The notes beneath the pieces are model-generated. The model was not told the DNA's origin and searched no databases. It was given only the letters and a program-made list of their open reading frames with translations. DNA of 64,000 nt, taken from the IMG/VR virus record IMGVR_UViG_3300037310_000496. One strand, written 5' to 3'. The DNA is from a virus. Made by a program: the position numbers and the translations under genes. Below, piece by piece: positions 2,203 to 58,139 of this stretch (positions are counted from its first letter, which is position 1; the number at the start of each line of letters is the position of its first letter).

Positions 2203-2889
2203 GTGATCATGGTGGATTACACTAAAGTATATACATATTCGCCTAGCATCATTCTTGCATCAATAGGCACATCAAAGACTCTCCTGAAAGAATGGAGTGG
2301 CAATGTCCACTATCCTAATGCAAATTTACCAATCTATGTGGCAAGTTCGTCAGCAAGCGACATCAACAAAATTTTAACTGTTGAAGGCATCGACTCATCG
2401 TTCAATGCCATATCGGAAAAAATTACACTTTCTGGACAGACCGCTAAACTTTTAGACAATTCCTATTATCGTATCAACCACTTGAGAGTTAATGCACCAC
2501 TAGTTGGAAACGTTCATGCTTCAGTTGATTCAGACTGGACAAATGGTGTTCCAGATGATGCCAACAGTAGCCTGAATTTTTTATTGGCAACTGAACTTGA
2601 AAACAATAGCTTAATTTATTGTGTACCTTCTTTTCGTGCACCATTCCATTTGGTGCAGTTATTTAGACGAGTTGAAGAAAATGGAGGAACTGTCATTTTG
2701 GAAGGCAGACGTTTTGGTGCCAGCTGGAAAGAAATTGACAAATGTGTTTTGGCTGCTAACAGTCGTCTTGATACCAGATTTGTCATCCCTTTCAAATTTG
2801 AAAAAGGAATGGATTTAGCAATGTATGGACAATCTGCCAGTTCAACCACTAAAATCGCAGGTTGTATGTCATTGCATGAAACATACTAA
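2203..2889 (+). CDS. Hypothetical phage protein
   Basis: 228 aa; LTVEGIDSSFNAISEKITLSGQT..YYRINHL segment resembles a recurring uncharacterised phage protein; first gene of a + strand operon. Confidence 0.6.
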   Translation: MIMVDYTKVYTYSPSIILASIGTSKTLLKEWSGNVHYPNANLPIYVASSSASDINKILTVEGIDSSFNAISEKITLSGQTAKLLDNSYYRINHLRVNAPLVGNVHASVDSDWTNGVPDDANSSLNFLLATELENNSLIYCVPSFRAPFHLVQLFRRVEENGGTVILEGRRFGASWKEIDKCVLAANSRLDTRFVIPFKFEKGMDLAMYGQSASSTTKIAGCMSLHETY

Positions 2890-2944
2890 AATCAACCGCA
2901 CTTATACCGCATAATTTATATTGCGTAATGATATATACAGTATA

Positions 2945-3373
2945 ATGGCAATAAAAAACATAAAGAAGATTCGAGTTCGTAAATCTTATTATGATTTAAT
3001 GGAAGATACAGTCACACTGATGAAAAAAAATATAGTGATGACAATCGATGAATTGGCATTAAAAACAGGATATTCAAAACGAAGAATTTATGATGTCACT
3101 ACAGCATTGCATGCTTTGCAGCTGGTAAGTGTACAGCGCAGGAAAAAATGCAAGAGTGAAGTAGTATGGCTTGGCAAGGAAATAACTGAAGCAATCCCAC
3201 CAATTCAACCAATTCAAATTGACAAGGAAATTGAATTGTTCACTTCTCACTTGGTCATACAAACCCAACAAACTGAAATCAACAAAATTTCCCATAGGGA
3301 AGATGGAATCTATATCCAGATGGCGGAACCATCGAAAATATTGATTAGGGGTGAGGACAATGTCCGGATCTGA
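2945..3373 (+). CDS. E2F/DP-like winged-helix DNA-binding protein
   Basis: RKSYYDL...KRRIYDVTTALHALQLVS...EVVWLG aligns by eye with the E2F/DP DBD (KSL...KRRIYDITNVLEGIGLIEK...IQWKG); ATG at 2945. Confidence 0.7.
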   Translation: MAIKNIKKIRVRKSYYDLMEDTVTLMKKNIVMTIDELALKTGYSKRRIYDVTTALHALQLVSVQRRKKCKSEVVWLGKEITEAIPPIQPIQIDKEIELFTSHLVIQTQQTEINKISHREDGIYIQMAEPSKILIRGEDNVRI

Positions 3374-4106
3374 AAAAATCTATCGTTGCATCAATATGGA
3401 ATGTCAAGGATATCAAACGATTGAAATTGACATTGAAGACAGTAAAATATGTCCGATTTGTTCGGTTCCAGTGGATGATCAAATGTCATCTTTGGTACCA
3501 AAGACCACATGGAGTGATTCAGTTGGAATAATTGATGGTTCGAATGATTTAAATGGACGGAACATGACCCATCAATTGAAAAAAGAAATTGGAGAAATAG
3601 TTGAACGATATTTATCTTTTATTGTTGATGAATCGGATATCGTTGACTTTCCATTGGACATTCATTTTGCTGTAGAGAATGAATATATAACATGGATGCC
3701 TATAGTTGAAAAGCAACCAAGTTGGTATATACATTCAGTTTCCTTAATAATTTCCCTGTTTATGTTTCATTCAATCAATTATCCTGTAAATTTTATTGGG
3801 ATGTTGAACACTGGAAATGTCGATATTCATTTAAATGTCAATAATACCATGTTGAAAATTCCAATAGGAATTTGTTGGGTGTTAGCCATGACAATCGAAA
3901 ATATTGCTATCTATATGGATAGCAATGAATTTGTCGACAGTCAATTCCGGTTGCTTTTTAATGTTTTCAGTCGAAAGTTTACTGTAGACAATATTAATCG
4001 TTCCACATTTAATACGGTCAACGAACTTATGAGGGCAAATGTTGACATTCCACAAGAACTTCTGGATTCGTTGTTCAAGATGGAAAAAAACAAAGGGGAA
4101 ATATAA
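3360..4106 (+). CDS. Hypothetical protein with N-terminal Zn finger
   Basis: CINMEC...CPIC at N-terminus; overlaps upstream stop, operon-like. Confidence 0.6.
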   Translation: MSGSEKIYRCINMECQGYQTIEIDIEDSKICPICSVPVDDQMSSLVPKTTWSDSVGIIDGSNDLNGRNMTHQLKKEIGEIVERYLSFIVDESDIVDFPLDIHFAVENEYITWMPIVEKQPSWYIHSVSLIISLFMFHSINYPVNFIGMLNTGNVDIHLNVNNTMLKIPIGICWVLAMTIENIAIYMDSNEFVDSQFRLLFNVFSRKFTVDNINRSTFNTVNELMRANVDIPQELLDSLFKMEKNKGEI

Positions 4107-4107
4107 A

Positions 4108-4464
4108 ATGAAAGTTGTAGAAGAGTCAAATAAAAATACAGATGTACATTACTCGATTGATACGCTTAAATGGAATGATGAACAGCTAGAACGATATGCA
4201 AAAGTAGTTGAAGCGTTTTGGAACATCAAAATTGCAAAAGGTGGAGCTATTATACTTCATTATTTGCATATACATGGTACTACCATAAATGCGAAATTGA
4301 GAGTTGATACCAATCTCCATCAAAAAACAATAACGTTGTGGGTTACAATATTCAAGGATGCTGGTATCATCAAGAAAATCATTAATTTAAATGATACACG
4401 TTCCGTCTTCATTTTTCTGTCAGACATTGCCCAACAGAAATTTGATTATGAGTTTAAATTATAG
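4108..4464 (+). CDS. MarR-like winged-helix protein
   Basis: ILHYLHIHG.T..KL...NLHQKTIT.WV..FKDAGII.K...DTRSVFIFLS pattern; ATG at 4108. Confidence 0.65.
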   Translation: MKVVEESNKNTDVHYSIDTLKWNDEQLERYAKVVEAFWNIKIAKGGAIILHYLHIHGTTINAKLRVDTNLHQKTITLWVTIFKDAGIIKKIINLNDTRSVFIFLSDIAQQKFDYEFKL

Positions 4465-9611: not shown

Positions 9612-9665
9612 TTATTCATATTATTTATATTATTTATATTATTCATATTATTTATATTATTCATA
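9612..9665. repeat. 9-bp tandem repeat x6 (TTATTYATA)
   Basis: ttattcata/ttatttata, six consecutive units. Confidence 0.9.
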
Positions 9666-9689
9666 TCATAATATTTATTAGTATCAAAT

Positions 9690-9923
9690 ATGTCATGTTT
9701 ATCAATGGTGACTATTCCAACAAGAAAGAAAATACAATTCCATGAAGATGACAACGGATTTTACGTGACAGTAAAATGTTCCAATTGCTACGAGCTGTTG
9801 ATGAAACATGATTATGATGTCATGCCTATTAATTCAAGAGCTGAAAGACAAAAAATTAGCAGAATTGTGACCGAATTGTTTGTTAGCCATATAAGAGAAA
9901 AACATAGGGTAATGATGGAATAA
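9690..9923 (+). CDS. Small protein with CxxC
   Basis: 77 aa, VKCSNCYELL; upstream of the MTase. Confidence 0.5.
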   Translation: MSCLSMVTIPTRKKIQFHEDDNGFYVTVKCSNCYELLMKHDYDVMPINSRAERQKISRIVTELFVSHIREKHRVMME

Positions 9924-17590: not shown

Positions 17591-20500
17591 TTAATATCCA
17601 TCAAAGAAATTTATCAAAGATTGTTGTTTGGTTGTAATAGATACATCCAACAATTGCTGATATACACTTCCCACGATTGTGACATAATGTCTAAGATCTA
17701 TGTCGTTAATATCATTGACCAGTACACTTGGTATCCATCCATTATAACATTTCACATAGTCGACATGTATACCTTTTCTGATGGCTATATTCTTCCCAAT
17801 AGACTTAAAATGATTCTGGAGATTGTTTGCAGCTTGGACAATAGGTGTATTGTTTTTATAGTGATTTTGGTCATGGCATATAGAAAGGCAATTGCATAAT
17901 TCTTTAGTCAATATTTGAGTAAACTGTAACGATACTAGAGAAATATTATTACAATTCAAAATTGATAGGATTAATTTCTCTTTATTTTTGATGATATATT
18001 CTTCTATTTCTTTATTTGATTTTTCAAATGGGATACCATTGATACATTCTTTAAATGCTTTACGAATCAAAAGAGGAGTAGATTTTTTAATGCCTAAAAA
18101 ACCTTTTATTTTGATTTGATGGTCACTAAACAGAATGTAATTCTTTTTCTTATAGAAAAACATTGCCTTCCAAAATCCCTCGTTTGATACTTCCATACCG
18201 TCTTTTGACATTATTGAAACAATATCTGGTGAAACATTAGATGCAAATACTGAATCAGTATTATGACATTTTAAACCGTCAACTGCAAATGTACCCAATT
18301 TCGTCTCGAAGTCGTAGACATAGTTATCCAATCCTGGGAAATTCCGAAAATAAGTTCCGATTGTAAATTTTCTTAGATTTGAATTTCCGGATGTTTGTGC
18401 AAAAAAATATTTTTTTCTACTATAAGAATTAAAAACGAATTTAAATGCACCAAATTGATTGTGAAAAATACGAAATGATGCCATATGCAAATGGTTTGGA
18501 AAAACCCATCGACCATCGTTGAAATAATATCTTTCAATAAAATTATAATATAGTTTCGCTGCATCATAGGATAAATTAAATATTCCTGGATATGGCTTTA
18601 TTTTTTTGCCTTCTTCATCATATACTTCTCGTCTGACGATATCCCATAATTTATTGAACGATGAAAATGTTATGTCAAATCTTGGACGTGTACCATCTTT
18701 TATATATATGGTGTATGATATGCCCCAATCGTAAAACAATCTTCTGCAATATTCAAGAATGGCAATTATATGTTCCAGATATCGTGTATGCCCTTGTATA
18801 CTACAAAAATGGATATTACGTGAAATAGTCATATTGCGTGATGTTGTGCCACAAAGACTGAATATCGACAACATAAGAATTTGGTTGTCATAATTCCCTT
18901 TTGTTGTAGACAGATAATTGACAATAGGAAAAACCTTACTGGACAATGTTATCGAAGAATTGTTTATGTTCTTCATCAACAATATTGGTGATATTTCATG
19001 ACCATCATCAGTGACTAGAGAATGATCACCAGTGACATCAGCCATACCATGTTCCGTTGATACGCGAAACATGGATTTGCTAGTCAAATGTCTAATAAAA
19101 CCCAATAAAGGATTGAATTGGTCACCATCCCAAATTTCAAGATTTTTTCCTGATAAGTCAATCCTCTCTTTGGTTTCATGATGAGTCAATGCTGTATGTC
19201 CACGTTTGATTAATTGATTCCATAAACCAGTCACATCAATATTCATTATTTCTTTTGTTTCTGCAATACGAATGATGACTGGTGATGACCCAGCTACACT
19301 ATCACCATAATGTACTGTACCACCTTCATCTTGGACTGTTTTTATAAGGTGAGCCAAAGATCTTCGTGATGTTGCAGTGACAGCTTGGGCAATATCTCCA
19401 TTAAAAAACATAAATCCTTCATTTGCCATGCATCCATATACTGCATTCATGACAACCTTGAAAAATTGAGAAATGGAAACAGCCGACTGGCTAAATTCTT
19501 TGTGGATTGGATTGCTTCTAGGTTTGTATATTTTTAGTCGTGCACTCCTAAGAAAAATAAGTGACGCTGGAATAATTCCGACATAATGATTGCATGATTT
19601 TATTGGATATGTCGGTAGATCAATGATTGGACATTCAGAATGTCCACAATTGACTGTTGAAAAACATAGGTTATACTTGATGATATTTGTCGGGTATAAT
19701 GATGCAAAATCCAGGACGGAAATGTTGCGATAAATTCCAGGATTAGCTGTAATAACGTCTGCACCAATGATGTTGTTTTTTGTTTTATTACTATATGGGA
19801 TATGAATATTCCTTTGGTGGAGATATCTAATTAAAAATCCATTCCACCATGTAGTTACTCCACTCCTATTAGCTTTATATAAACTTAGGTCACTAAATCT
19901 CATGATAAAAAACAAAATGAAAACTGGAAAATTGTCATTGTGGGTCGCCAATTTAAATGTCAATTGTGCATCCTTAGCATTATAATAAGCCAATTCGTTT
20001 GAATCGAGTGATTCAATACTTCCCTCGTATAAATATTTGCCTTCCTTAATTACTGCCCTTGCAACAGTATCAAGTTTATTGTTTTCATATCCACCATAAA
20101 CATAATTGGATATGCTTGGATTTGAAAAATATTCATAAAGATCCAATACGATTTTATTTTTCCATTTTATTTTTCTGACTTTCATGAATCCAAAAGTTTC
20201 TTCACTCCAATAAATATTAAATTGATTGTTCAATCCAAATAATTCAATGCGGTGAACAATATATGGTACATCAAACCCATCACCATGATAAAATACGAGA
20301 AAAGGTTGAACCATTTGAGATATATAATTAAGGGATGCAACAAGAAGATCTTTTTCACTTTTGAATATTTCAAGTATAAAATTGTCAGGATTAGCATTGG
20401 CATTGGCATTTTCGATGTTCTTTTGATGGAGTATAAAATTATCAATGGTGAATACTCTAGTGCTATCGTATGTAGTAACAGCTATGGATGTTATCGGAAC

Positions 20501-21253
20501 TTGAGAATATAGTGGATCCATCGAATCCATGAAATTAGCTTGAATTTCAATGTCTATACATGCAATAAGTTTATGCCAAGGTGGTAAAGGTGCATGAATA
20601 ATTTCATGAAGTATTTTACCCATACCTATAGCTTCCTTAGGTATAGATTGGTAAACATCCGCATATAGTGCATCATTTGCACTGTCTTTGCTGACAACTT
20701 GAGTGAAAACACCATTGGAAAAAATATATGGCATGCCCATCATCATTTTTGTCTCGTTTAAAACAAGATTCGAATAAATGACTTTATTATTGTAAACAAG
20801 TTGGGAATCACTTTCAAAAAGGGAAGAAATGCCTTTTGGGCCAGAAACTGCTGATGGTGTATGAACCACGACTTTTGTCAATTTCACTTCCGATCCCCTA
20901 ACATCTTTCATGGTTATGTCGACCAATGACTTAATTTTAGAGTTGACATTATTTATCATTAACACCTTGACAACTTCATTTCTTGGCATCTTCACGAAAA
21001 AGAATGGTGATACTGTATTTACGACATATTTGAATAATTTTCCTGAAATATCAATGAAAACAAATTGATGATTACTATCTTTCATATAATTGGTGTCTAT
21101 TAACCAATACATCCCATCATTTTTAATCGTAGGTAAACTATAGTTGTTGAATCTACGATGTTTCTGATTAATAATACCATCTGAATCGGAAACATCGTCG
21201 TTTTGAATCCAAACCGATCCATGCTTTTTTCTCATGTCAACTGGTCTAAGCAT
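17591..21253 (-). CDS. polB: Family B DNA polymerase with intein and C-terminal PIP box
   Basis: ExoI DIE, ExoII YHGDGFDVPYI, ExoIII YNAKDA, A DFASLYP, B KVVMNAVYG, C YGD|TDS split by intein; QQSLINFF at C-terminus. Confidence 0.97.
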   Translation of the reverse strand: MLRPVDMRKKHGSVWIQNDDVSDSDGIINQKHRRFNNYSLPTIKNDGMYWLIDTNYMKDSNHQFVFIDISGKLFKYVVNTVSPFFFVKMPRNEVVKVLMINNVNSKIKSLVDITMKDVRGSEVKLTKVVVHTPSAVSGPKGISSLFESDSQLVYNNKVIYSNLVLNETKMMMGMPYIFSNGVFTQVVSKDSANDALYADVYQSIPKEAIGMGKILHEIIHAPLPPWHKLIACIDIEIQANFMDSMDPLYSQVPITSIAVTTYDSTRVFTIDNFILHQKNIENANANANPDNFILEIFKSEKDLLVASLNYISQMVQPFLVFYHGDGFDVPYIVHRIELFGLNNQFNIYWSEETFGFMKVRKIKWKNKIVLDLYEYFSNPSISNYVYGGYENNKLDTVARAVIKEGKYLYEGSIESLDSNELAYYNAKDAQLTFKLATHNDNFPVFILFFIMRFSDLSLYKANRSGVTTWWNGFLIRYLHQRNIHIPYSNKTKNNIIGADVITANPGIYRNISVLDFASLYPTNIIKYNLCFSTVNCGHSECPIIDLPTYPIKSCNHYVGIIPASLIFLRSARLKIYKPRSNPIHKEFSQSAVSISQFFKVVMNAVYGCMANEGFMFFNGDIAQAVTATSRRSLAHLIKTVQDEGGTVHYGDSVAGSSPVIIRIAETKEIMNIDVTGLWNQLIKRGHTALTHHETKERIDLSGKNLEIWDGDQFNPLLGFIRHLTSKSMFRVSTEHGMADVTGDHSLVTDDGHEISPILLMKNINNSSITLSSKVFPIVNYLSTTKGNYDNQILMLSIFSLCGTTSRNMTISRNIHFCSIQGHTRYLEHIIAILEYCRRLFYDWGISYTIYIKDGTRPRFDITFSSFNKLWDIVRREVYDEEGKKIKPYPGIFNLSYDAAKLYYNFIERYYFNDGRWVFPNHLHMASFRIFHNQFGAFKFVFNSYSRKKYFFAQTSGNSNLRKFTIGTYFRNFPGLDNYVYDFETKLGTFAVDGLKCHNTDSVFASNVSPDIVSIMSKDGMEVSNEGFWKAMFFYKKKNYILFSDHQIKIKGFLGIKKSTPLLIRKAFKECINGIPFEKSNKEIEEYIIKNKEKLILSILNCNNISLVSLQFTQILTKELCNCLSICHDQNHYKNNTPIVQAANNLQNHFKSIGKNIAIRKGIHVDYVKCYNGWIPSVLVNDINDIDLRHYVTIVGSVYQQLLDVSITTKQQSLINFFDGY
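18260..19300 (-). mobile_element. Intein (347 aa) in PolB motif C, with degenerate LAGLIDADG region
   Basis: YGD|SVAGSSPVIIR...FAVDGLKCHN|TDSVF; Ser1, block B TGDHS, terminal HN, Thr+1. Confidence 0.9.
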
Positions 21254-21414
21254 ATTTCATCCTAACTGTTCCGCAATATAAATATTGTGATTACATAATA
21301 ATTAGACTACGAATTGTCATAGTGCATTTTGAATGATATTAAGTTTTTTAACCGCAATAAATTCCAATTTCAATCTTAACATTTATAATGATCAAAATAC
21401 AATGATGTGTACCA

Positions 21415-24400: not shown

Positions 24401-25008
24401 CAGGAATTGAAATTACCTACTATAGAAGTGATAAGACTGTCGGCATAGCAAGTGACAAACGTATCATGATCGCAATTTGTCGACCTCTTCCTCCTGAAGA
24501 AGCATTTGAATGGATGGCTAGCAGTATAGAACATCAAGCGAACTTAAATGGACTTCAAGAAATGGGACACCGTGGCTTGACATTGAACCTACAAAATTTT
24601 GGGATGAATAAGACTTTCTATCAGACTGTAGGACGCATAAAAGATCCAACAGGCAAAGTGCCATCAATAGTTTATTGTTTTGGAATAAGAAAAGATGATA
24701 TTATTTCAATGATTACAGGTTATACTCCATTAAGAATTTATTCAACGACTCATTCGATTTCAAGTTATTTTAATTTACAGTCACGAATAATAGTAGGTCA
24801 ATACTGGATGAAAAAATATGTCGAAATGTCACCCAATATTGCCAGAATAATTGAATGGATAACTAAAACTGGTTCTTTAAGCATATCCAATATCAAAAGA
24901 AATTTACCACCTTTGGAATTTCAATCATTGATTGACAATTTAAGTGAATATCAATTGATCATTGAGAAAGGTATCATTGTAAATGAAAACTTACATAAGC
25001 ACAACTAA
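21415..25008 (+). CDS. Fused AEP primase (PriS + PriL-CTD) and SF2-like helicase
   Basis: LDID, SGKKG, IDLN..RHVFRLPYS (PriS); PPCI..H..R..L, CSKI..C..C (PriL Fe-S); TRAGFTT, LLDEVS, QTVGRIKD (helicase-like). Confidence 0.75.
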   Translation: MYDLSLSRTVLALTGIQELLMNATDYATKNEDKWVWSQDKDLITFIRPCFRSVKGFDHTMFVLDIDTYPEEDLKNLATVFEIREISLRVVTTIMDIILAKDPNFLCYLSGKKGGYMIRKVKPNVSPRRFMDVIMTLLPECPIEHPKDENSYCENWHLSPKKYWCYRKVKFMGDEFDMEVAIDLNMILKEGRHVFRLPYSLYEIQGKTLVCPLVSFGKDGKIDFERTLDNSIIDKVTVVDFEIPIMELKELKELKELNDTHEFLTVRQVKSSIPALVNYDIPLPKSTLSPRDLDMLEKIELMLTGPPETTPPCIHNAYVKHMPNRHWNRVLIGRYLFNKNISIRDIGLFIRFRINDDEDNQPENVSKMNENLRYFIAPTDDNPRLPPKCSKIQDSSGDFFACYPENSIACKRPYVLQNQITLAVTPNDSKINVEPSVFDIPYVPIDYLNQPMTIDEQNEVNSEVMDNVNILPINVFRGLDGLGTITNAYSNQWDKIETESSFDTVIQNVTDMLMDSSPTMVRKTTRAGFTTTLVIACRQKGLRLLVLEPTNAIPTETFPDAIKIANEQYKLDVTAAIISANTKSCLKVMMKNRQIENHKTIYPNWGSETIQIHNMPFLIKPACSRYNASGNIVKVCEYFDELYPIEPNKIISNSEIIELPVVDGDEQVLKTTAMGGQGICAKNTIVQNINRLDTLFATYAKMDTILMDNSIEGINTRIGIGEFDVVLLDEVSTLIEGRPLSTMIGHIDINGKSSNTTQHYLKQVAMVRDSTKISFQTFIGISDLISETIKVMNRIFYDYKQNRWNNQVNNAIPNTIIRSEIEERIMGYYATIQEIVERENLPVVQLAHLLLIIKSPEWFISANPTIDGSITVSIITRPEITRLRSFLGQLIANGVKILSTDASLPSSNLLPLLQLNNITWKTYDLGDPRKINRSSLIIPDTKNITVTDLNRKTEIVLELDKFVKSICHIHDQKNIMMVFPNKKIATTIGKDFKHNFPGIEITYYRSDKTVGIASDKRIMIAICRPLPPEEAFEWMASSIEHQANLNGLQEMGHRGLTLNLQNFGMNKTFYQTVGRIKDPTGKVPSIVYCFGIRKDDIISMITGYTPLRIYSTTHSISSYFNLQSRIIVGQYWMKKYVEMSPNIARIIEWITKTGSLSISNIKRNLPPLEFQSLIDNLSEYQLIIEKGIIVNENLHKHN

Positions 25009-25073
25009 TATCTTGCGTAAGACAACATTTATATATTGACCATGATAATACAATATGCTTATCGTGATGATAA

Positions 25074-27476: not shown

Positions 27477-27532
27477 CATACCGCAAGTAATATTTTGCGA
27501 AAGTTTATTAGGGATATCATCAATAAACATTC

Positions 27533-28207
27533 ATGGATATTGACCGAATAGTCGACTTAAATCCTAAAACCAGGAAAATCCTGGAAGACAATAAAATTGA
27601 CATAAATCGTCTATCAATGATGAGACCAAAGGATCTCATCGAACTGGGAATTTCAAACCAAGTGGCGTCAAAAATTATCAGAAATGCACTTACCCTTACA
27701 ACAATCGATCCAACTAAAATCACCAAACAGACAAGCAGTCTACCATTAAAAAATGAAACGACAGCAGAAGAAGAAGCAATAATGGAAATCCAAAAAATAT
27801 CGAGAGATGAATGGAATGCCCTAAGTATCGAATATAAACAAAAACTACATCGTATTCATCGTTCAATGGTAAATTTTCCTATGGACAATACAAACAAATT
27901 TGAAGAAGTAAATATAAATGAAGTTGCAAAACTTGACAAAGGAATTGAATCTTTTGATCAAATGGAATATAACATAAAGAAAAAACTGATGGATACTAAA
28001 GAAAGTGATAAAGCTATATTAGATAAAATCATCGAAGAAAATGTACATGGAATTGAAATACCTCCACTTTTTATTGATCAACCACAAACTTCAGATGATA
28101 AAAAAACCGACAACTTGACTCCACGTCAGAGAAATCGTGCCGAAACACGAAAATCAATCGATAAAATGGTTGATGACATGATTGGAACTTCAGGACGGTT
28201 AATATAA
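27533..28207 (+). CDS. Protein with RadA/Rad51 N-terminal HhH-like domain
   Basis: IVDLNPKTRKILEDNKI..NRLSMMRPKDLIELGISNQVASKIIRNA resembles the RadA NTD; no ATPase domain follows. Confidence 0.55.
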   Translation: MDIDRIVDLNPKTRKILEDNKIDINRLSMMRPKDLIELGISNQVASKIIRNALTLTTIDPTKITKQTSSLPLKNETTAEEEAIMEIQKISRDEWNALSIEYKQKLHRIHRSMVNFPMDNTNKFEEVNINEVAKLDKGIESFDQMEYNIKKKLMDTKESDKAILDKIIEENVHGIEIPPLFIDQPQTSDDKKTDNLTPRQRNRAETRKSIDKMVDDMIGTSGRLI

Positions 28208-29157
28208 TGCCAAGTCTATCCAAAGATGGTGAATGGATAACCAGAACCACTGAAATATTAAGGGTGATTTCATGCCAGGAACAAGCATACCATACGAGAT
28301 CGTTGATTGAAAACCTTAACAAAGGCATCGTAAAACAGTACCATGAATTCAATACTATAACAGGAATAATTGGCACTAGCGTGCACCATGAAATACAAAA
28401 ACACCTATCAAAAAAAATCGGAGCAAATCCACCTGAAATAAGACTTAGCAAAACAGAACAGACATTCATTGCAAAAATCAATGAAATTCCAGAAACGAGA
28501 AATGCATTCAAAAGCGCCATGTTAAAATCACTCATGAACTATTATGATTTTATAACAAAATTAAATCCTCAACCTTGGGCTATTGAAAAAAACATTGAAT
28601 ATACAGTAAACAATGGAACTAAACGAGTGAAGGGGACAATTGACTTAGTAGCAATTGTTGATACAAACAAATTGACTGAGTTGACTGGTCAAAAATTTGA
28701 CAGAAGTCCAAATAACGAAAATGTCATTTTGATAGACTGGAAAACTGGACGCAGTTTTAATGATCAACATGCCATACAATTATCCGCTTATTATTATGGT
28801 TCCCAACATTACCTGAAAAAAATACCGGTTCCATATATTACATACAATCAAAAACCATATGCATTAGATGTATATTTAGGAGGAAATTCAGCCCATCCTC
28901 ATTTAGTGGAAATAAACACGGATTTTTTTTTTACAGCCGTTGATAAATTCTTTAATTCACAACAGATTCCAATTTCATTTCCTATAAATGGGAAACCAAC
29001 ATTGGTAACTGGAGGAAATACATGTTATTTTTGTTCATTTATTGGAGCTTGTTCCACTACTCAACGAATAACGAAAAAAATCGATGAAATCGATGAAATC
29101 GATGAAATCAATGAAATCAATGAAATCAATGAAATCAATGAAAAAGGAGAAACATGA
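28207..29157 (+). CDS. PD-(D/E)XK exonuclease (Cas4/RecB-like)
   Basis: GTSVHHEIQ, KGTIDL, IDWKTG, QLSAY, C-terminal CYFC....C. Confidence 0.85.
   Translation: MPSLSKDGEWITRTTEILRVISCQEQAYHTRSLIENLNKGIVKQYHEFNTITGIIGTSVHHEIQKHLSKKIGANPPEIRLSKTEQTFIAKINEIPETRNAFKSAMLKSLMNYYDFITKLNPQPWAIEKNIEYTVNNGTKRVKGTIDLVAIVDTNKLTELTGQKFDRSPNNENVILIDWKTGRSFNDQHAIQLSAYYYGSQHYLKKIPVPYITYNQKPYALDVYLGGNSAHPHLVEINTDFFFTAVDKFFNSQQIPISFPINGKPTLVTGGNTCYFCSFIGACSTTQRITKKIDEIDEIDEINEINEINEINEKGET
29078..29140 (+). repeat. 9-bp tandem repeat x7 (AAATCRATG) encoding DEI/NEI at nuclease C-terminus
   Basis: aaatcgatg x3 then aaatcaatg x4. Confidence 0.9.
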
Positions 29158-29979: not shown

Positions 29980-32241
29980 ATGGTGCGATTGATAAAAAAA
30001 TCTTTAGCTGATTTAATGGAAATAAGTAGATTGCTTCTTCAAGATAGCATAATTGAAGAACAAACCAGTATAGTTTATCATAGTGTTCAAACACAATATC
30101 CACTCCCTGGATATTCAACTGCAAATAGAAGAATATTGACCATTATGGCATTGGAAGGCATATCGTCAACAGGAAACTGGATAACTGAAGACAATTTAGT
30201 ACTAAATACTGACTATTACCCATATGGTGCTACAGGAATAGTGGAACAAGGATATGGCGCATCGTCAAGTCAAACAATATACACTGGAATTTTTATCAAC
30301 ACTGCCATATTCAAAGATGGAACTACCATATATATACGATATAGATACCAAAATCCTGATTTTCGACCAATATTGACCAATTTCAGCAACGATTCACAAT
30401 TGAGGAAAATATTGTCAGCAATACTTAATAATGTTCATTTGGATGTATCGAATTTATCGTCAACCATTGATTCATTCGGCATTGAAGCCAAAGGAAATGA
30501 CCTGGATCGTGTTGTCGGTCTAGCTGGAATTGTCAGAACCACAGGGTCATATACCACAGGTAGAGTTCAAGTTGTCAATTCAAGTAGCACCAATTCGTTT
30601 TCAGTAACATCGGGAACAGTTTTCACAGCAAGAAGAGGTGGCGGCTATATTAATTTCAGATCGTCAGGATCGATCAATATATCACCTCTGACAACCGCAA
30701 TATTTCAAGTCACGTCAAATGAAATAGGACGTGCTAACAATGTTGGACCTTATGCAATAACAGAAGTATATCTGTCTGATACCTTAAATGAAAAAGCACC
30801 ATCATACATTGTCGTATCAAACCCACCAATATTGGAAACCACTGAAAATTATTTCAACAATGGTAGCGACCCTGAAGGTGATATACCTTTAAAGGAACGG
30901 TATCTTACTGCAGTCAAAGCAACCAAGACTTCAAGTTCCGCAACGATAAAAAAAGCTATTGAAGACACGAATTTAGTAAAGGATGTCATAATTCAAGACA
31001 TAAACAACCGAAAGGGCATTTCTCAATTCAATGTCATTGCTGTAATACAAAGCCTAAGTGGAACTCCATTGACACCAACATCAGTGGCATTGGTTCAAAA
31101 TGCAGCTATAGATGTCATGCCTGCTGGTATCAGATTGAAAATAGAACAGACAATGCAGTCATACATATCCATTGTCGCTGTTGTGTCAATTCCTGCTATC
31201 AATCTTATCGATACATCAAGTGTAACTACAAATATAGAAAATGCCATCAATTCATATATCAATGGATTAAAACTAGGGGAAGACATTTACCCTAGCAATA
31301 TCATTGCAGCCATAGTGACTGTAAACCCTGTCGTTGATGCACAATTGACTGAAACGACCATTACTGAATATGTAAGTGAAACTTATGCCGTTGACACTGA
31401 AATAGAGCTGTCTAATTCAAGTGGAACTGAACAAAACAGAATAGCCCTCCAATTGCCATTCAACTCTGTTGTCCAGCGGGAAGTTGCCAACTATGATGGA
31501 ACCAATGCGTATCTTAATGTCACAAACACACCAATAGACGAAAGAATAGCACCTCGTGTCAATAAGTCAGTTGTTGATCATCTTGGATTGAATAGACCTT
31601 CTCCGTTAAACAGATTTGATTTTTTCAGTTCAGTATCTAACAGCAGTAGTCGAATAAACTTCAATCCAACTGGTGATACATCAGATCCGATAGTGAATGG
31701 TCAATCCGTATATTATGACTACAATCACTACGACAACAGGACAATACATGGAATACGCATTTTACTAGGAGGAGTAAGTGGTCAAAAAGTGAAAGTTGAA
31801 CTTAGGACTGGTTCAAATGTCGATACGGCTACCCTTGTCCATGCCGATACTCAACAGACCATTACTTTAGATAGTGAATCAGCTAAACTATATACAGCCA
31901 CATTTACAAATCCAGTAACATTGACTCCACAGACAAACACCTATTGGATCTATGTCACTAGAGATAACAGCAACGTAAACAAGACAACCATATGGATTGA
32001 TTCAACCAATCAGTATGTTGCAATGAATCCACAATTCTGGGTTGACGGTCAATATGAAACATCACCTGGTGCACCAAATGGCACCCATCAACGAAAATAT
32101 ATCAGGGGTCATTACCATAGCTTCACAAAAAATGTTGCCACTGTTTATCAAAAAATAATTATACCAACAAGATCATTCTACCCAGAATCCTCCAAATTAT
32201 TAAGTAGTACGATTACATATGTGGAGGCAAATGATCAATGA
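29980..32241 (+). CDS. Baseplate J-like protein
   Basis: AKGNDLDRVVGLAGIVR..G..T.G.V, GTVF, GRANNVG..AIT, GSDPEGD..LKERY. Confidence 0.85.
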   Translation: MVRLIKKSLADLMEISRLLLQDSIIEEQTSIVYHSVQTQYPLPGYSTANRRILTIMALEGISSTGNWITEDNLVLNTDYYPYGATGIVEQGYGASSSQTIYTGIFINTAIFKDGTTIYIRYRYQNPDFRPILTNFSNDSQLRKILSAILNNVHLDVSNLSSTIDSFGIEAKGNDLDRVVGLAGIVRTTGSYTTGRVQVVNSSSTNSFSVTSGTVFTARRGGGYINFRSSGSINISPLTTAIFQVTSNEIGRANNVGPYAITEVYLSDTLNEKAPSYIVVSNPPILETTENYFNNGSDPEGDIPLKERYLTAVKATKTSSSATIKKAIEDTNLVKDVIIQDINNRKGISQFNVIAVIQSLSGTPLTPTSVALVQNAAIDVMPAGIRLKIEQTMQSYISIVAVVSIPAINLIDTSSVTTNIENAINSYINGLKLGEDIYPSNIIAAIVTVNPVVDAQLTETTITEYVSETYAVDTEIELSNSSGTEQNRIALQLPFNSVVQREVANYDGTNAYLNVTNTPIDERIAPRVNKSVVDHLGLNRPSPLNRFDFFSSVSNSSSRINFNPTGDTSDPIVNGQSVYYDYNHYDNRTIHGIRILLGGVSGQKVKVELRTGSNVDTATLVHADTQQTITLDSESAKLYTATFTNPVTLTPQTNTYWIYVTRDNSNVNKTTIWIDSTNQYVAMNPQFWVDGQYETSPGAPNGTHQRKYIRGHYHSFTKNVATVYQKIIIPTRSFYPESSKLLSSTITYVEANDQ

Positions 32242-40435: not shown

Positions 40436-41524
40436 TTATGCAAATTTCGATTGTGGCAATGAAATGCCACGAACATTGATGCCTTTGACACCAGCGGAAG
40501 GCTCCTTAGCCGCAAAACCATATCTAGCTCTAAATGTCAATGACGATATGTCTTTAAAAGCATCATGTGGTGGAACTTCAGACGTTAATGGCTGACGTTC
40601 TACAAACTCGGCAAATTCTTCATGGTCATAAACAATAATTTCGTTGCCAACCAGTGGACTGATAACCAATCTTTCAATCTGACCAATATGAGGCAGTACT
40701 GGTGCACCTGGTGTAGCACCCTCAATTATTCTCATTGCCTTGTTTGACGAGACGTATTTCCATTTTCCTGCAGCATCCTTCCATTCATCTAACTTTAACC
40801 ATTCGTTAAAACTAGACGATGACATCAAACATGTAGTTGGTCGATACGATTGTTCTGTTTCAAGAATATAAACTAAATCAATAATCATATCATGGGATAA
40901 CCTATTTGAAGGATAATCTGGAGAATTGAAATTTAAAACATGTGAATTAAAACGTATTCCCTTAAAGTTAGTTCCATCAGCCACTCCTTTTGATATACCC
41001 GATAGGATTACACTGGTTTCAAGCTCGTCAAATGCATCTACAATCTTCTTGACAACCATACCCATCAAATCTGGTTCCATACTGGCTAGAAGTTCATCAG
41101 TAAACTCGACGGCCAAACCAACCTTATACACCCGTGTATACCGGCTGGACAAGTCAAACATCACTGTTCTTTTTTGGGCACCAGGAGCAGTCGGTGCCGC
41201 GGTTACACCACCACCAACCATCCATTGGTAGAAATCACTATCAGTCCGACTTGACATAACTAAATTTCTTGCCGGAAATTTGTTTCGTGTATATGTCTTT
41301 ATACTACGATCAACTGCCACCTTGGTAAATATACCAAGTGTACGCGGATCAACATAACTACTAATAATGTCCTCAATCGTTTGTTTGGTAGTACGATTTG
41401 ACCGGATCAACGATTGTGAACTTCCTGAAAAACTTTCAAGAGTAGCTCCAGGCTGTAAATAGTTGGAAATTATCTTGTCGGCAGACATATTAATTTGGAT
41501 TTGTTTTGGATGCATATTTATCAC
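40436..41524 (-). CDS. Major capsid protein (HK97 fold)
   Basis: YKVGLAVEFTDELL, IVDAFDELET.VILSG, TCLMS..F..W.KL, YGFAAKEPSA; follows protease/scaffold. Confidence 0.85.
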   Translation of the reverse strand: MINMHPKQIQINMSADKIISNYLQPGATLESFSGSSQSLIRSNRTTKQTIEDIISSYVDPRTLGIFTKVAVDRSIKTYTRNKFPARNLVMSSRTDSDFYQWMVGGGVTAAPTAPGAQKRTVMFDLSSRYTRVYKVGLAVEFTDELLASMEPDLMGMVVKKIVDAFDELETSVILSGISKGVADGTNFKGIRFNSHVLNFNSPDYPSNRLSHDMIIDLVYILETEQSYRPTTCLMSSSSFNEWLKLDEWKDAAGKWKYVSSNKAMRIIEGATPGAPVLPHIGQIERLVISPLVGNEIIVYDHEEFAEFVERQPLTSEVPPHDAFKDISSLTFRARYGFAAKEPSAGVKGINVRGISLPQSKFA

Positions 41525-43768: not shown

Positions 43769-45589
43769 TCATTTCTTATGTGAAATATTCATGAATGTAT
43801 TTTTATAATCTTTGAAATCTTTAGACCCTTTAGAATATTTTAAACCTTTAGAATCTTTAGAACTTTTGGAATTTTTAGAATCTTTGGAATCTTTGGGATC
43901 TTTTGGATCTTTGGAATCACCATTGACGGAATTGACTCCACCATTGCCATCTGAACCATTATGGCTTTCCTTCATTACATTTTGTGGTTTTTGGTACCGA
44001 ATTGGCGCCGACAAATCCTCATCATTGACTTCCCCATCATATCCCATCTCCTCCCGAATTTCACGAGGAGTGAGAATGCCTTCCCTGGCATACACTTGAT
44101 GGCGCAGACGACGGTCAGCAACCGATTCCATAGTATTCCACACCAACTGCGGTATTCGGGAAAGAAACGATGGGGATAAGTTAGGATAGAAGACAACCGG
44201 AGGTTCATTGCCATTCTTGATGTCTTCCAGAACGGAATCACAGTCCTGGACATCCATGCGGGAACCATGCCTCAACGGATCGCCAATTATACAGTCAGGG
44301 TACAGTTGAGTCGAATGATGGTTGGAAACAACTTTTTGAATGAACATCAACTGACGTGACATGATTTCCAGTTGGATGACCGAACCTTCCCCACTTCCAC
44401 CACGACCTGTAAGAACCGGTGGCAAACCAATGCCGTTTGTTTCCTGCTCTTCAAAATATCTCAAGTATGGTTCTGCATTAGGCAAGTTCTTGCCAAGTTC
44501 TTTTTCTTCAACATCGAAATACCATGGCAACAAAATAAACTTGAGATCCGGACGTTTTACAACCTCACGAAAAATACTCTTGGCGCCATCACCTGAAACC
44601 ATGTTTGTCTCGGTACCATATTTGAAAACCATCAAGGATGAGGCTGAATTCTCTATCATCCGAAGAACCCTTTTCTGAATGCCTATCTTCGACTTGGCAT
44701 ACGAAATCAGAGGAACCCCCAATCCATAGCCATATACCGTATCGTCATAATAGGCATTGTAGTTATAATAGACTATCTTGTGACGAGGAAGCATCACGAT
44801 GCCACCCAAATCATCACCTGAATAATCATCACCCTTGGATCTCCTAATGTCCTCCATCTTCTTGATAAACTTGTCTACATCACGATAGGATATCGTAATA
44901 CCACCCAAAGTACGGGTAGTGTCAACCATACTTTGAATGAAATAAAGGATATTGCCATGGTCATCGACCACATTGTGCATGGTGTCAGGAGAAAGGACTT
45001 TTAGACCCTGCACACCCCATCCTCCATCTGCCATACCTTTCTTATCATATATTTTCTCGACCCATACATTGCCAGTCGCCATCATGGAATGAATCTCTTG
45101 ACGAAGGACATGGTCATAGTTGACCTTACGAGCCCACAACTTCCAATAACCCTCCGAAATCTCCGGAAACACCGGACTGGGAGATATCTCCATTGGGACA
45201 TCCACCATCTTGAAACGATAGCCATATCCAATGGAAAGTTCCGACCTAATATTCAAACCCTGGTTTATACCAGGCTCCGCATTGATCATGTCAATGATAG
45301 ACCGATACTTGATATTGTGGGACACCCCACCAAACTCATCCCCAAATTGATCCTCAGACATCACCACCTTAGACTCCTTGCCAGAACCATTGCCCACTGA
45401 CATGGTTTCGTCAGCCAACCCTAGATCAATGACCCGCTTAGTCTTGGTGTTATATATCCCGATATGATTGGACGGAAGACCCTTAAAGATATCATTGAGC
45501 TTGTCAAAAGCCTCTTTCGTGTCCCCATCCGATTCAATCGTCACCGCATTCATCATATCCTTCCACTGGACATTCCCATTATTAACCAT
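43769..45589 (-). CDS. Portal protein
   Basis: ATGNVWVEKI, VYGYGLGVPL, GLPPVLTG, GILTPREIREEMGY. Confidence 0.9.
   Translation of the reverse strand: MVNNGNVQWKDMMNAVTIESDGDTKEAFDKLNDIFKGLPSNHIGIYNTKTKRVIDLGLADETMSVGNGSGKESKVVMSEDQFGDEFGGVSHNIKYRSIIDMINAEPGINQGLNIRSELSIGYGYRFKMVDVPMEISPSPVFPEISEGYWKLWARKVNYDHVLRQEIHSMMATGNVWVEKIYDKKGMADGGWGVQGLKVLSPDTMHNVVDDHGNILYFIQSMVDTTRTLGGITISYRDVDKFIKKMEDIRRSKGDDYSGDDLGGIVMLPRHKIVYYNYNAYYDDTVYGYGLGVPLISYAKSKIGIQKRVLRMIENSASSLMVFKYGTETNMVSGDGAKSIFREVVKRPDLKFILLPWYFDVEEKELGKNLPNAEPYLRYFEEQETNGIGLPPVLTGRGGSGEGSVIQLEIMSRQLMFIQKVVSNHHSTQLYPDCIIGDPLRHGSRMDVQDCDSVLEDIKNGNEPPVVFYPNLSPSFLSRIPQLVWNTMESVADRRLRHQVYAREGILTPREIREEMGYDGEVNDEDLSAPIRYQKPQNVMKESHNGSDGNGGVNSVNGDSKDPKDPKDSKDSKNSKSSKDSKGLKYSKGSKDFKDYKNTFMNISHKK
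43802..43918 (-). repeat. Degenerate 9-bp coding repeat x13 (xSK/xxK) at portal C-terminus
   Basis: DSKDPKDPKDSKDSKNSKSSKDSKGLKYSKGSKDFKDYK. Confidence 0.85.
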
Positions 45590-45622
45590 TTACCATTACA
45601 TCCTATGGCAGAAGGGATCCGG

Positions 45623-45690
45623 CGGCAAAACCAGACGGCAAAACCAGACGACAAAACCAGGCAGCGAAAATCAAACGCCAAAAACCAGAA
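45623..45690. repeat. 13-14 bp intergenic direct repeats upstream of portal
   Basis: cggcaaaaccaga x2, cgacaaaaccagg, cagcgaaaatcaaa, cgccaaaaaccaga. Confidence 0.7.
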
Positions 45691-56531: not shown

Positions 56532-58139
56532 CTATTTGAATTCAGTGTCCACAGAAAATTCATAGTTGTCGTGGGTAAACAGGGAGTCTGATGATGTATA
56601 TATGTCACCATATTGGGTCCCTATGGTATTGGGCTCATATACTTCAAAAAATGGTCGATGGGGCACTGTTTCAGCTGCACGATCAGTTTCGACACCTACG
56701 AACCTAATATGGCTGATTGCAAGGACAAAGGCATCCGCAAAGTCATCAAAACTTCCTTTGGGCGAATGGATCTTTTGGATCTTGCTGATATGGCTTTCTT
56801 CTTCAGTTATATTCTGAAGTTCATGGATCAATTCCTCGTGGTTTTTTTGGATCAGGACCCTGCCAAGACCCATGCCCATCTTGGCATTGTTGTACATGCG
56901 GGCTTTGGGCACCAGATCCATTGATTCACCACGGAGATTGAAACTGATATGGCGTGATATGTTCCTTAGCCATACACTAAGGACATCACCCACATTTTTT
57001 TTGTCAAAAATGACATAGGTGACTGAAAATTGGTTGATGATGTCAATGACATGCTCAAAAATTATTTGCCAGTCATTTCGCCGAATGCGGAATGTATGGA
57101 TAATGACAACCATATCTGTCACTTCATTCACTTCACCTACGACTATGGCAGTATAGTCATGGAGACGTCCGAAGTCGACACCCATGATATAGTATGGGCG
57201 TTGGTTGGAACTCAATCGGTAACCGGTCTCCACGAGGGAATTGAAGATGGTGTGTGACGAGAAAAATGTTGAGCTGGATTCACTCCATCGTGCCAGGTAT
57301 TCTCGCTCAAATTCGTAGTAGTTGGAGTTCCTGGCACTTTCCACTTCGTATATGTTTATTTGGGGCAGTTTGGTAATGGGATTGATGACTTTGAGACCCC
57401 ATGTATAATCATAGTGGTATCCGACAAATCCGTACTTTCTCCCGACTGGAGTCTTGTATGGCTCTTCTCCTGGTGCCAATGGTCGAAGACCCTCAAATTT
57501 CATTCGTGCATCCCATGCATCTTGAAAACGTTTGTAGAATGGTCCTCCTATTTTTCGGCTGGGCGTAGTGGTCATGAGAATTTTTCCATGGGTTGATGAT
57601 GTAGTTGGCAAAGCTGCCGGAAATACATCCGGATGAATAAAATCAGCTTCGTCAAGGATTAGGAGATCAATCACTTCACCACGTATCGATTTGCCTTCCA
57701 TTCCCGGAGGGAAATATTTGACGGTAGATGGTCTTCCGTTGTCCCCTAGCAGGGACAACTCCATTCTTGTCTCCAAGTCATGTTCATGTGGCAAAAATGA
57801 TGACAGGAGTGGATTGAACCGTTGGAAAAGTTTTATCCGTTTGAATGGTTTCATGCCTCCGCTTTCATCTTGACCCATGATTCCTACAGCAGAGCCAGGG
57901 AACATATTTATTTGGTGGGTTGCAACGACCGCTATCGTATCGGTCTTTCCTAGTTGTCTAGAAAAAAGACCCATTTTGCGTGGGTAGGGGTCATTTGCTA
58001 AACCTTCTTGGTAAATGTAGAAATTATAGTTCAAGAATTTTTCAGCGAAATAGCTTACTGATTGTTTAGCTCTTTTGAGAACTTTAGGAGTGATTTGGTC
58101 GATTGATGTGATCATATGATTGCACCTATTGTTTGCCAT
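56532..58139 (-). CDS. terL: Terminase large subunit
   Basis: FSRQLGKT, IRGEVIDLLILDEAD, TTP, REYLARW, GVDFGRLHDYTA, DDFADAFVLA. Confidence 0.95.
   Translation of the reverse strand: MANNRCNHMITSIDQITPKVLKRAKQSVSYFAEKFLNYNFYIYQEGLANDPYPRKMGLFSRQLGKTDTIAVVATHQINMFPGSAVGIMGQDESGGMKPFKRIKLFQRFNPLLSSFLPHEHDLETRMELSLLGDNGRPSTVKYFPPGMEGKSIRGEVIDLLILDEADFIHPDVFPAALPTTSSTHGKILMTTTPSRKIGGPFYKRFQDAWDARMKFEGLRPLAPGEEPYKTPVGRKYGFVGYHYDYTWGLKVINPITKLPQINIYEVESARNSNYYEFEREYLARWSESSSTFFSSHTIFNSLVETGYRLSSNQRPYYIMGVDFGRLHDYTAIVVGEVNEVTDMVVIIHTFRIRRNDWQIIFEHVIDIINQFSVTYVIFDKKNVGDVLSVWLRNISRHISFNLRGESMDLVPKARMYNNAKMGMGLGRVLIQKNHEELIHELQNITEEESHISKIQKIHSPKGSFDDFADAFVLAISHIRFVGVETDRAAETVPHRPFFEVYEPNTIGTQYGDIYTSSDSLFTHDNYEFSVDTEFK

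What the first reader, a model, noticed from the sequence alone, without database searches (positions are those of the whole stretch)
2945..3373. Viral E2F/DP-like transcription factor
The protein carries the RRIYD motif with matching flanks (KS at helix 1, L..L.LV after, W.G at the wing) of the E2F/DP DNA-binding domain. This family is established as a eukaryotic cell-cycle regulator in which RRXYD contacts the GC core of the site. The conserved N of NVL is replaced by T. It lies in an operon with a Zn-finger protein and a MarR-like wHTH. A homologue in an archaeal virus could inform the prokaryotic origin of E2F/DP, or indicate control of host replication genes (inference).
Basis: partly seen in the sequence, partly recalled or inferred. 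Interest (0 to 1): 0.8.

Follow-up and report, generated by a model that had tools for sequence, protein, structure and literature searches.

The report
Asgard-type E2F/DP gene in archaeal virus
A tailed virus from freshwater metagenomes, probably infecting archaea, encodes a small DNA-binding protein of the E2F/DP family, known so far only from eukaryotic cell-cycle control and Asgard archaea, and a distantly related virus carries one too, so this family also occurs in viruses.

Summary
ORF 2945-3373 (142 aa) passes Pfam's own threshold for the E2F/DP winged helix (30.7 bits, cut-off 25.7). It carries RRIYD on the recognition helix. Against a eukaryotic E2F alignment built without it, hhalign gives 96% probability; the neighbouring MarR-like protein gives 0.1%.

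The protein looks like the E2F/DP homologues already published for Asgard archaea (Eme et al. 2023) more than like eukaryotic E2F. It has the same short layout and a longer wing. Its beta-rich tail, searched alone, best matches an archaeal E2F/DP structure cluster (TM 0.58).

An 86.9-kb related virus carries a 145-aa homologue (RRLYD plus the same tail) inside its replication module.

Canonical TTTSSCGC sites are not enriched. Instead, an 18-bp palindrome, C[G/A]CA-N10-TGCG, lies at four promoter regions: the gene's own, PolB's and two further ones in the replication block. It is a candidate operator, inferred and not shown.

Fold searches recover only a generic winged helix, so membership rests on sequence. 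An archaeal host is likely; an Asgard host is plausible but unproven.

This scan has often found chromosomal Asgard E2F/DP genes, never one in a virus. Verdict: a new, viral member of a known family.

The parts
2945..3373 (+). E2F/DP-like gene (142 aa, P0001)
   Evidence: ORF and translation. Pfam E2F_TDP 30.7 bits, above the 25.7 cut-off. hhalign 96.4% against a eukaryotic E2F alignment.
3014..3175 (+). Winged-helix DNA-binding domain (residues 24-77); RRIYD lies at nt 3080-3094
   Evidence: Extent of the Pfam match. AF2 with an alignment gives pLDDT 83-96 for residues 11-80, with topology H15-28, E31-33, H34-41, H45-57, E61-65, E71-75.
3221..3367 (+). Beta-rich C-terminal tail (residues about 93-141), shared with Asgard E2F/DP homologues
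   Evidence: The tail alone best matches the archaeal E2F/DP structure cluster: TM 0.58, 48 residues aligned, next rows 0.34-0.44. Beta strands appear in the single-sequence AF2 model. The tail aligns with that of the related virus's homologue.
2895..2925 (+). Promoter and candidate operator: two ACCGCA copies 11 bp apart, then the palindrome CGCA-N10-TGCG around a TATA-like TTTATAT centred about 27 nt before the ATG
3360..4106 (+). Downstream gene of unknown function with an N-terminal zinc-ribbon-like motif; its start overlaps the E2F-like stop codon
   Evidence: ORF list and sequence. Only a weak YdjO hit.
4108..4464 (+). Third gene of the unit, a MarR/SarA-like winged helix (weak)
   Evidence: Pfam Staph_reg_Sar_Rot 20.8 bits and MarR 16.3 bits, both below their cut-offs. 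No relation to E2F (hhalign 0.14%).
21272..21289 (-). Second copy of the palindrome (CACA-N10-TGCG), ending 18 nt before the PolB start; shares the 11-mer TTTATATTGCG with the first copy
25000..25017 (+). Third copy of the palindrome, upstream of the gene at 25074
27482..27499 (+). Fourth copy of the palindrome (ACCGCA-N9-TTGCG, as at 2906), upstream of gene 27533 and the PD-(D/E)XK exonuclease gene 28207

Best explanation
The gene encodes a sequence-specific DNA-binding regulator of the E2F/DP winged-helix family. It is of the compact type found in Asgard archaea: a winged helix with RRxYD, a short linker and a small beta-rich tail. It is carried by a myovirus-like virus that most likely infects an archaeon, possibly an Asgard archaeon. 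Shown: family membership by sequence, the two-part layout, and a homologue in a second, distantly related virus, where it lies among replication genes. Inferred: the protein binds as a dimer to CGC-containing half-sites through the two arginines of RRIYD. Its likely targets are the 18-bp palindromes C[G/A]CA-N10-TGCG that overlap or abut the TATA-like boxes of its own promoter, the PolB promoter and two further promoters in the replication block. Binding there would time or repress its own expression and that of the viral replication genes.
For: Sequence membership:
- Pfam E2F_TDP is above its gathering score, and TrmB is below its own.
- hhalign gives 96.4%, E 1.3e-9, against an E2F alignment that excludes the query; the neighbouring winged-helix protein gives 0.14%.
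- The best sequence hits among solved structures are E2F8 and E2F4 for the single protein, and DP-2 and E2F8 for the two-virus profile.
- In a phmmer search of 1.8 billion representatives, the only real non-self hit is a eukaryotic E2F.

Asgard-type layout:
- The published Asgard sequences are 115-185 aa, with a winged helix plus a beta-rich tail.
- The viral wing has a 4-residue insertion relative to eukaryotes. The Asgard sequences have the same longer wing, by eye.
- The tail alone best matches the archaeal E2F/DP structure cluster (TM 0.58).

A second virus:
- L077:10251-10685 matches P0001 at BLASTP E 4e-6 over residues 46-135, including RRLYDV, the wing Trp and the tail. Its best Pfam family is E2F_TDP.

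Palindromes:
- 6 strand matches (4 sites) against 1.34 expected.
- With an A/T-only spacer, 5 against 0.72 expected, reached by 0 of 100 shuffles.
- All four sites lie in promoter regions.

Virus and host:
- Sheath, baseplate J, HK97-type capsid and TerL are present.
- PolB scores best on the archaeal PolB models, 277 bits against 91 for bacterial Pol II.
Against: - No binding data exist.
- The canonical E2F site is not enriched.
- The palindrome half-sites are 14 bp apart, unlike the abutting half-sites of E2F-DP.
- The MarR-like protein of the same operon could be the binder.
- The palindrome is absent from the related virus that has a homologue.
- Fold searches do not single out E2F/DP among winged helices, and the AFDB match to E2F is circular because the model was made with E2F sequences.
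- No host link was found: no spacer, no provirus, no relatives in the species genomes.
Confidence: 0.7

Rival explanations
1. It is a true E2F/DP-type protein, but its targets are in the host. The virus would use a captured copy of the host's own E2F/DP-like factor to take over that factor's regulon, for example host replication or nucleotide genes. The palindromes in the viral genome would then belong to another regulator or be plain promoter elements.
For: Eme et al. propose that Asgard homologues read E2F-like sites. Canonical sites are missing from the viral genome. The related virus has the gene but not the palindrome.
Against: No host genome is available, so no host site could be examined. 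The palindrome sits directly on the gene's own promoter, the usual place for an autoregulated operator.
Confidence: 0.2
2. The four palindromes are real, but they are the operator of the MarR-like protein (4108-4464) or a virus-specific promoter element read by the basal machinery. The E2F-like protein would have other targets.
For: MarR-type dimers typically bind palindromes with separated half-sites. The palindromes enclose or abut TATA-like boxes. The 14-bp half-site spacing differs from E2F-DP sites.
Against: The half-sites contain the CGC/GCG triplet that RRxYD arginines read in E2F4-DP2 (established from structure 1CF7). Nothing distinguishes the two candidate binders computationally.
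Confidence: 0.3
3. It is a generic archaeal winged-helix regulator (TrmB, MarR or ArsR-like) that reached an RRIYD-like recognition helix by convergence, and is not a member of E2F/DP.
For: Foldseek on the PDB ranks MarR, TrmBL2, TFE and SSV1 F-112 first. VIA-align ties many winged-helix families at Z 9-10.6. The Atlas's own model of the whole protein is nearest to TrmB clusters. There is a weak TrmB Pfam hit, E 0.0026.
Against: E2F_TDP is above its curated cut-off and 12.7 bits above TrmB. Similarity extends over helix 1, helix 3 and the wing, not just the motif. The separate tail also points to archaeal E2F/DP proteins. The neighbouring winged-helix control scores nothing.
Confidence: 0.1
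4. It acts in replication and not in transcription, for example as an origin-binding or replisome-loading winged-helix protein.
For: In the related virus the homologue lies between the SF2 helicase and the HHH and PD-(D/E)XK genes, downstream of PolB. In this virus the palindromes cluster in the replication block.
Against: The sites sit at fixed distances from start codons and on TATA-like boxes, as operators do. Known E2F/DP members are transcription factors.
Confidence: 0.1

Closest known systems
Asgard archaeal E2F/DP homologues (eukaryotic signature protein 'E2F/DP', PF02319, arCOG02749; Eme et al. 2023, Nature, Suppl. 4.1.5 and sequence table)
   Same: Similar size (115-185 aa). Winged helix with [KR]RR[IVL]YD. 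A wing longer than in eukaryotes. In some members the N of NVL is replaced (one Sifarchaeia protein has T-T as here). A short beta-rich tail and no eukaryotic pocket-protein or DP/E2F dimerisation domains.
   Different: It is encoded on a tailed-virus contig, not a cellular genome. It is very divergent: phmmer over 1.8 billion representatives does not reach the Asgard proteins. A Pro-rich linker replaces the coiled coil seen in many Asgard members. Its place in the family tree was not tested.
Eukaryotic E2F1-6, DP and E2F7/8 DNA-binding domains (Pfam E2F_TDP; structures 1CF7 and 4YO2)
   Same: The recognition helix RRIYD, the helix-1 pattern and the wing Trp; about 30% identity over 64-70 columns.
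   Different: No coiled-coil or marked-box domain and no DP domain. A 4-residue insertion in the wing. T for the conserved N. Canonical TTTSSCGC sites are not enriched in the virus.
Small winged-helix regulators of archaeal viruses (e.g. SSV1 F-112, pSSVx Stf76)
   Same: A compact winged-helix protein encoded by an archaeal virus, probably controlling viral promoters. Both appear among the structural neighbours.
   Different: Those proteins have no E2F_TDP signature, no RRxYD motif and no beta tail.

Membership tests
E2F/DP winged helix (Pfam PF02319 E2F_TDP) | Score at or above the curated gathering threshold of the family model | tested here: met
   30.7 bits against a cut-off of 25.7, E 2.7e-7, residues 24-77 on profile positions 14-65 of 65.
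E2F/DP winged helix (Pfam PF02319 E2F_TDP) | RRxYD DNA-contact motif on the recognition helix | tested here: met
   R46-R47-I48-Y49-D50 lies in predicted helix 45-57. These columns are invariant in the alignment with 37 E2F sequences.
E2F/DP winged helix (Pfam PF02319 E2F_TDP) | Winged-helix topology ending in the conserved wing Trp | tested here: met
   H-E-H-H-E-E topology in both AF2 models. W75 is invariant in A3.
E2F/DP winged helix (Pfam PF02319 E2F_TDP) | Structure closer to E2F4/DP2/E2F8 than to other winged-helix families | tested here: inconclusive
   Foldseek on the PDB and VIA-align list MarR, IclR, ArsR, Z-alpha and TFE at tied scores, and E2F is not in the top 50. AFDB clusters list E2F first, but the model was built with E2F sequences.
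E2F/DP winged helix (Pfam PF02319 E2F_TDP) | Binds TTTSSCGC-type sites | not testable with these tools
   Only site counts could be made: 1 TTTSSCGC against 2.6 expected, and 5 SGCGCS against 4.7 expected.
Eukaryotic typical E2F or DP (PF02319 + PF16421 E2F_CC-MB, or PF08781 DP) | Coiled-coil/marked-box or DP dimerisation domain after the DNA-binding domain | tested here: not met
   No Pfam hit to PF16421 or PF08781 up to E = 1. The tail is 50 residues and beta-rich in the single-sequence model.
Asgard archaeal E2F/DP homologues (arCOG02749; Eme et al. 2023) | Compact layout: DNA-binding domain plus a short beta-rich tail | tested here: met
   The tail alone best matches the 93%-archaeal E2F/DP structure cluster (TM 0.58, 48 aligned). 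The whole-protein feature search lists the same cluster (0.83). The layout was read from the published sequences.
Asgard archaeal E2F/DP homologues (arCOG02749; Eme et al. 2023) | Falls within the Asgard clade in a family tree | not tested
The comparison was by eye: wing length, and LV-x-x-QRR shared with a Gerdarchaeales protein.
TrmB family (PF01978) | Score at or above the gathering threshold | tested here: not met
   18.0 bits against a cut-off of 25.6.

The most novel reading that the evidence does not exclude
E2F/DP-type regulators are a standing part of the replication modules of a lineage of Asgard-archaeal tailed viruses. They are used to time viral replication genes or to seize the host's own E2F-like regulon. 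This would be a prokaryotic counterpart of the way eukaryotic DNA viruses subvert E2F. It would also mean that viruses have carried this eukaryotic signature protein between lineages, as was argued for the fungal SBF and the viral KilA-N domain.
Probability: 0.15. Interest if true: 0.85.

Novelty: new member of a known kind. Interest (0 to 1): 0.6.

Why it matters
E2F/DP is listed as a eukaryotic signature protein shared only by eukaryotes and Asgard archaea (Eme et al. 2023). No function is known for any archaeal member.

A viral copy, kept in two distantly related viruses and tied to replication genes, gives three things:
- a hint that the family is linked to DNA replication control already in the archaeal world;
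- a marker that may point to Asgard hosts for an uncultured virus group found in freshwater and marine sediment;
- a small, self-contained system (one protein and four 18-bp sites) in which DNA recognition by an archaeal-type E2F/DP domain can be tested in vitro.

No paper in the searched library links E2F to an archaeal virus.

Tried and rejected
**Searches for close relatives**
- Only the protein's own fragment was found in the 5.8-billion collection.
- Nothing was found in GenBank phages, IMG/VR or the GTDB species genomes.
- The metagenome scan with A2 returned only eukaryotic E2F genes and transcripts. The profile search with A2 was likewise swamped by eukaryotic E2F.

**Handles and hosts**
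- No whole genome is held for the window.
- Loci from the look-up of encoding contigs gave no genome handle.
- The control genomes gave no Asgard handle, so Asgard genomes could not be searched.

**Structure**
- Single-sequence AF2 was poor (pLDDT 44.8).
- The model made with an alignment has a long C-terminal helix, which I regard as an artefact of eukaryotic coiled-coil rows aligned to the tail.

**DNA motifs**
- The canonical E2F site and the GCGC core are not enriched.
- ACCGCA is over-represented (24 found, 11.9 expected), but most copies lie in coding sequence.

**Other relatives**
- Ten distant IMG/VR relatives hold no match.
- The TerL flanks of three other relatives hold none.
- The PolB upstream region of the related virus has no CGC palindrome.

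**Expression and variation**
- No RNA holder is listed for the stretch.
- Contigs of a second freshwater study are identical, so no substitution pattern could be read.

**Neighbouring genes**
- Genes 21415, 25074 and 27533 gave nothing in Pfam, PHROGs, NCBIfam or PDB sequence searches.

- Aligning the Asgard sequences of the Eme supplement with P0001. They have no reference, and long strings are not to be pasted into calls.

Full report
**1. The observation**

The + strand has an ORF from ATG 2945 to TGA 3373 (142 aa, P0001). An upstream TTG at 2921 is an unlikely start, because it lies inside a TATA-like box. RRIYD is residues 46-50 (nt 3080-3094).

Pfam gives E2F_TDP at 30.7 bits, E 2.7e-7, residues 24-77. 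That is above the curated cut-off of 25.7. The next family, TrmB, reaches 18 bits, below its cut-off.

Other sequence tests agree:
- Against the sequences of solved structures, the best hits are E2F8 (4yo2) and E2F4 (1cf7).
- In an exhaustive phmmer search of 1.8 billion representatives, the only hits were the protein's own fragment, a repeat protein matching the Pro-rich linker, and a eukaryotic E2F.
- An alignment with 37 E2F sequences shows K45, R46, R47, Y49, D50, T52, L55, K67, K70 and W75 invariant.
- hhalign of P0001 against an E2F alignment built without it gives 96.4% probability, E 1.3e-9, over 64 columns. The MarR-like protein two genes downstream, used as a control, gives 0.14%.

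**2. The surroundings**

The window is a myovirus-like genome. I found:
- tail sheath, 820-2067 (PHROG 279);
- baseplate J, 29980-32241;
- HK97-type capsid protein, 40436-41524, and large terminase, 56532-58139;
- family B DNA polymerase, 17591-21253; SF2 helicase; C5 methyltransferase;
- PD-(D/E)XK exonuclease, 28207-29157;
- one tRNA-Ile(UAU).

Its own contig is 69,421 bp, and no whole genome is held for it.

PolB scores best on the archaeal PolB models of NCBIfam: NF004417 at 277 bits, against 91 bits for bacterial Pol II. For the E2F-like gene and for PolB, a TATA-like box lies about 27 nt before the start codon and there is no room for a leader. This is the archaeal pattern, from established knowledge of archaeal promoters.

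The DNA occurs in freshwater metagenomes of two studies and in a JGI sample. Terminase relatives of 36-47% identity lie on 50-87-kb contigs (53-87 kb), one of them from the Loki's Castle marine sediment metagenome. GenBank phages give only T4-like matches at 22-27% identity.

The E2F-like gene starts a three-gene unit. The next ORF (ATG 3360) overlaps its stop codon and begins with a zinc-ribbon-like motif. The third (probable start 4108) is a weak MarR/SarA-like winged helix.

**3. Which kind of E2F/DP**

Eme et al. 2023 (Suppl. 4.1.5) report E2F/DP homologues in most Asgard groups. [quoted passage not shown]

Their sequence table shows proteins of 115-185 aa with a winged helix, a linker (often a coiled coil) and a beta-rich tail. 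Read against these by eye, the viral protein shares:
- the longer wing. There are 13-14 residues between the hydrophobic pair after helix 3 and the Trp, as in Asgard proteins, against 10 in eukaryotes. In A3 this shows as a 4-residue insertion;
- LV-x-x-QRR, as in a Gerdarchaeales protein;
- T-T in place of T-N-V, as in a Sifarchaeia protein;
- a tail with the same alternation ([VI]S[NH]R ... [VI]x[VI][EQ] ... PS).

The tail similarity is weak at sequence level; my rough BLOSUM count is about 15 raw. An independent test supports it. The Atlas structure search with residues 84-142 alone puts the 93%-archaeal (mostly Thorarchaeota) E2F/DP cluster first, at TM 0.58 over 48 residues, with the next rows at 0.34-0.44. 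The same cluster is among the top feature matches for the whole protein.

I could not align the Asgard sequences with tools, because they have no reference.

**4. A second virus**

I walked the whole 86,925-bp contig Ga0643517_0000023, whose terminase is 45% identical to this virus's. I then scanned its six frames.

It encodes a 145-aa protein, L077:10251-10685. This matches P0001 at BLASTP E 4e-6 over residues 46-135, including RRLYDV, the wing Trp and the tail (...YRE..IYI...). Its best Pfam family is E2F_TDP, at 17.5 bits, below threshold. On its own it is not recognisable as E2F by hhalign (3.7%). The two-virus profile still has DP-2 and E2F8 as its best matches among solved structures.

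In that virus the gene lies between the SF2 helicase and the HHH and PD-(D/E)XK genes, downstream of PolB, which is inside the replication module. No homologue was seen within 10 kb of the terminase in three other relatives or in ten distant IMG/VR records.

**5. Structure**

- Single-sequence AF2 was poor (pLDDT 44.8), but it gave the winged-helix order of elements and beta strands in the tail.
- With the E2F alignment, residues 11-80 reach pLDDT 83-96. The long C-terminal helix in that model is most likely imposed by eukaryotic coiled-coil rows.
- Foldseek against the PDB ranks MarR-type proteins, SSV1 F-112, TrmBL2 and TFE first, at E about 1e-3.
- VIA-align ties dozens of winged-helix families at Z 9-10.6.
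- AFDB clusters list E2F/DP proteins first, but this is circular.

The fold confirms a winged helix and cannot decide the family.

**6. Possible targets**

TTTSSCGC occurs once in the window (2.6 expected) and SGCGCS five times (4.7 expected).

Directly upstream of the gene are two ACCGCA copies 11 bp apart and the palindrome CGCA-N10-TGCG (2908-2925). The palindrome encloses TTTATAT, centred about 27 nt before the ATG.

The pattern C[G/A]CA-N10-TGCG occurs at four places:

| Site | Position relative to genes |
|---|---|
| 2908-2925 | own promoter |
| 21272-21289 | ends 18 nt before the PolB start; shares TTTATATTGCG with the first site |
| 25000-25017 | before gene 25074 |
| 27482-27499 | before gene 27533 and the exonuclease gene; same ACCGCA-N9-TTGCG as at 2906 |

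That makes 6 strand matches against 1.34 expected, a count reached by 2 of 100 shuffles. With an A/T-only spacer and one mismatch allowed, there are 5 against 0.72 expected, reached by 0 of 100 shuffles. All four sites are promoter-proximal, while only 8.7% of the window is intergenic.

The half-sites contain the CGC/GCG triplet that the RRxYD arginines contact in E2F4-DP2 (established from structure 1CF7). That this protein binds them is inference. The MarR-like neighbour is an equally plausible binder, and the related virus lacks the pattern.

**7. Comparison and novelty**

The family is known in eukaryotes and in Asgard archaea. Earlier notes of this scan describe many chromosomal Asgard copies, and none in a virus.

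No paper in the library links E2F to an archaeal virus. I therefore file this as a new, viral member of a known family.

An Asgard host is plausible, given the family's reported distribution, one Hodarchaeota cluster among the PolB neighbours and sediment relatives. I put it at about even odds.

**8. Verdict**

- The mechanism (an autoregulated dimeric regulator of the viral replication genes) is a testable inference.

Noticed in passing
window 17591-21253 (-): The PolB gene is 1,219 codons long, but the Pfam polymerase-domain match stops at profile position 202 of 453 (residue 642). The nearest Atlas clusters often carry intein or LAGLIDADG domains. The gene probably holds an intein or another large insertion.
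   Followed up: no
window about 9615-9690: An AT-rich run of head-to-tail repeats (units such as TTATTTATA and TTATTCATA) fills the gap between the tRNA-Ile gene and the ORF at 9690. It could be an origin or a promoter array.
   Followed up: no
window about 45600-45660: Three direct repeats of about 13 nt (GTCTGGTTTTGYCG-like) lie just upstream of the 606-codon gene 43769-45589 on the - strand.
   Followed up: no
window, whole: The hexamer ACCGCA/TGCGGT occurs 24 times against 11.9 expected (reached by 0 of 100 shuffles). Most copies lie in coding sequence, on both strands.
   Followed up: partly
L074-L081 (JGI Ga0643517_0000023 and Ga0643518_0000034): The 86,925-bp related virus was assembled at identical length in two samples, but with different start points, so it is a circular or circularly permuted genome. 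Its structural genes are contiguous, whereas in the window they are scattered.
   Followed up: partly
window 2203-2889 (+): The 228-aa gene just upstream of the E2F-like unit matches only PHROG 8198 (unknown function, E 5.8e-7). It lies opposite in direction to the adjacent sheath gene.
   Followed up: no
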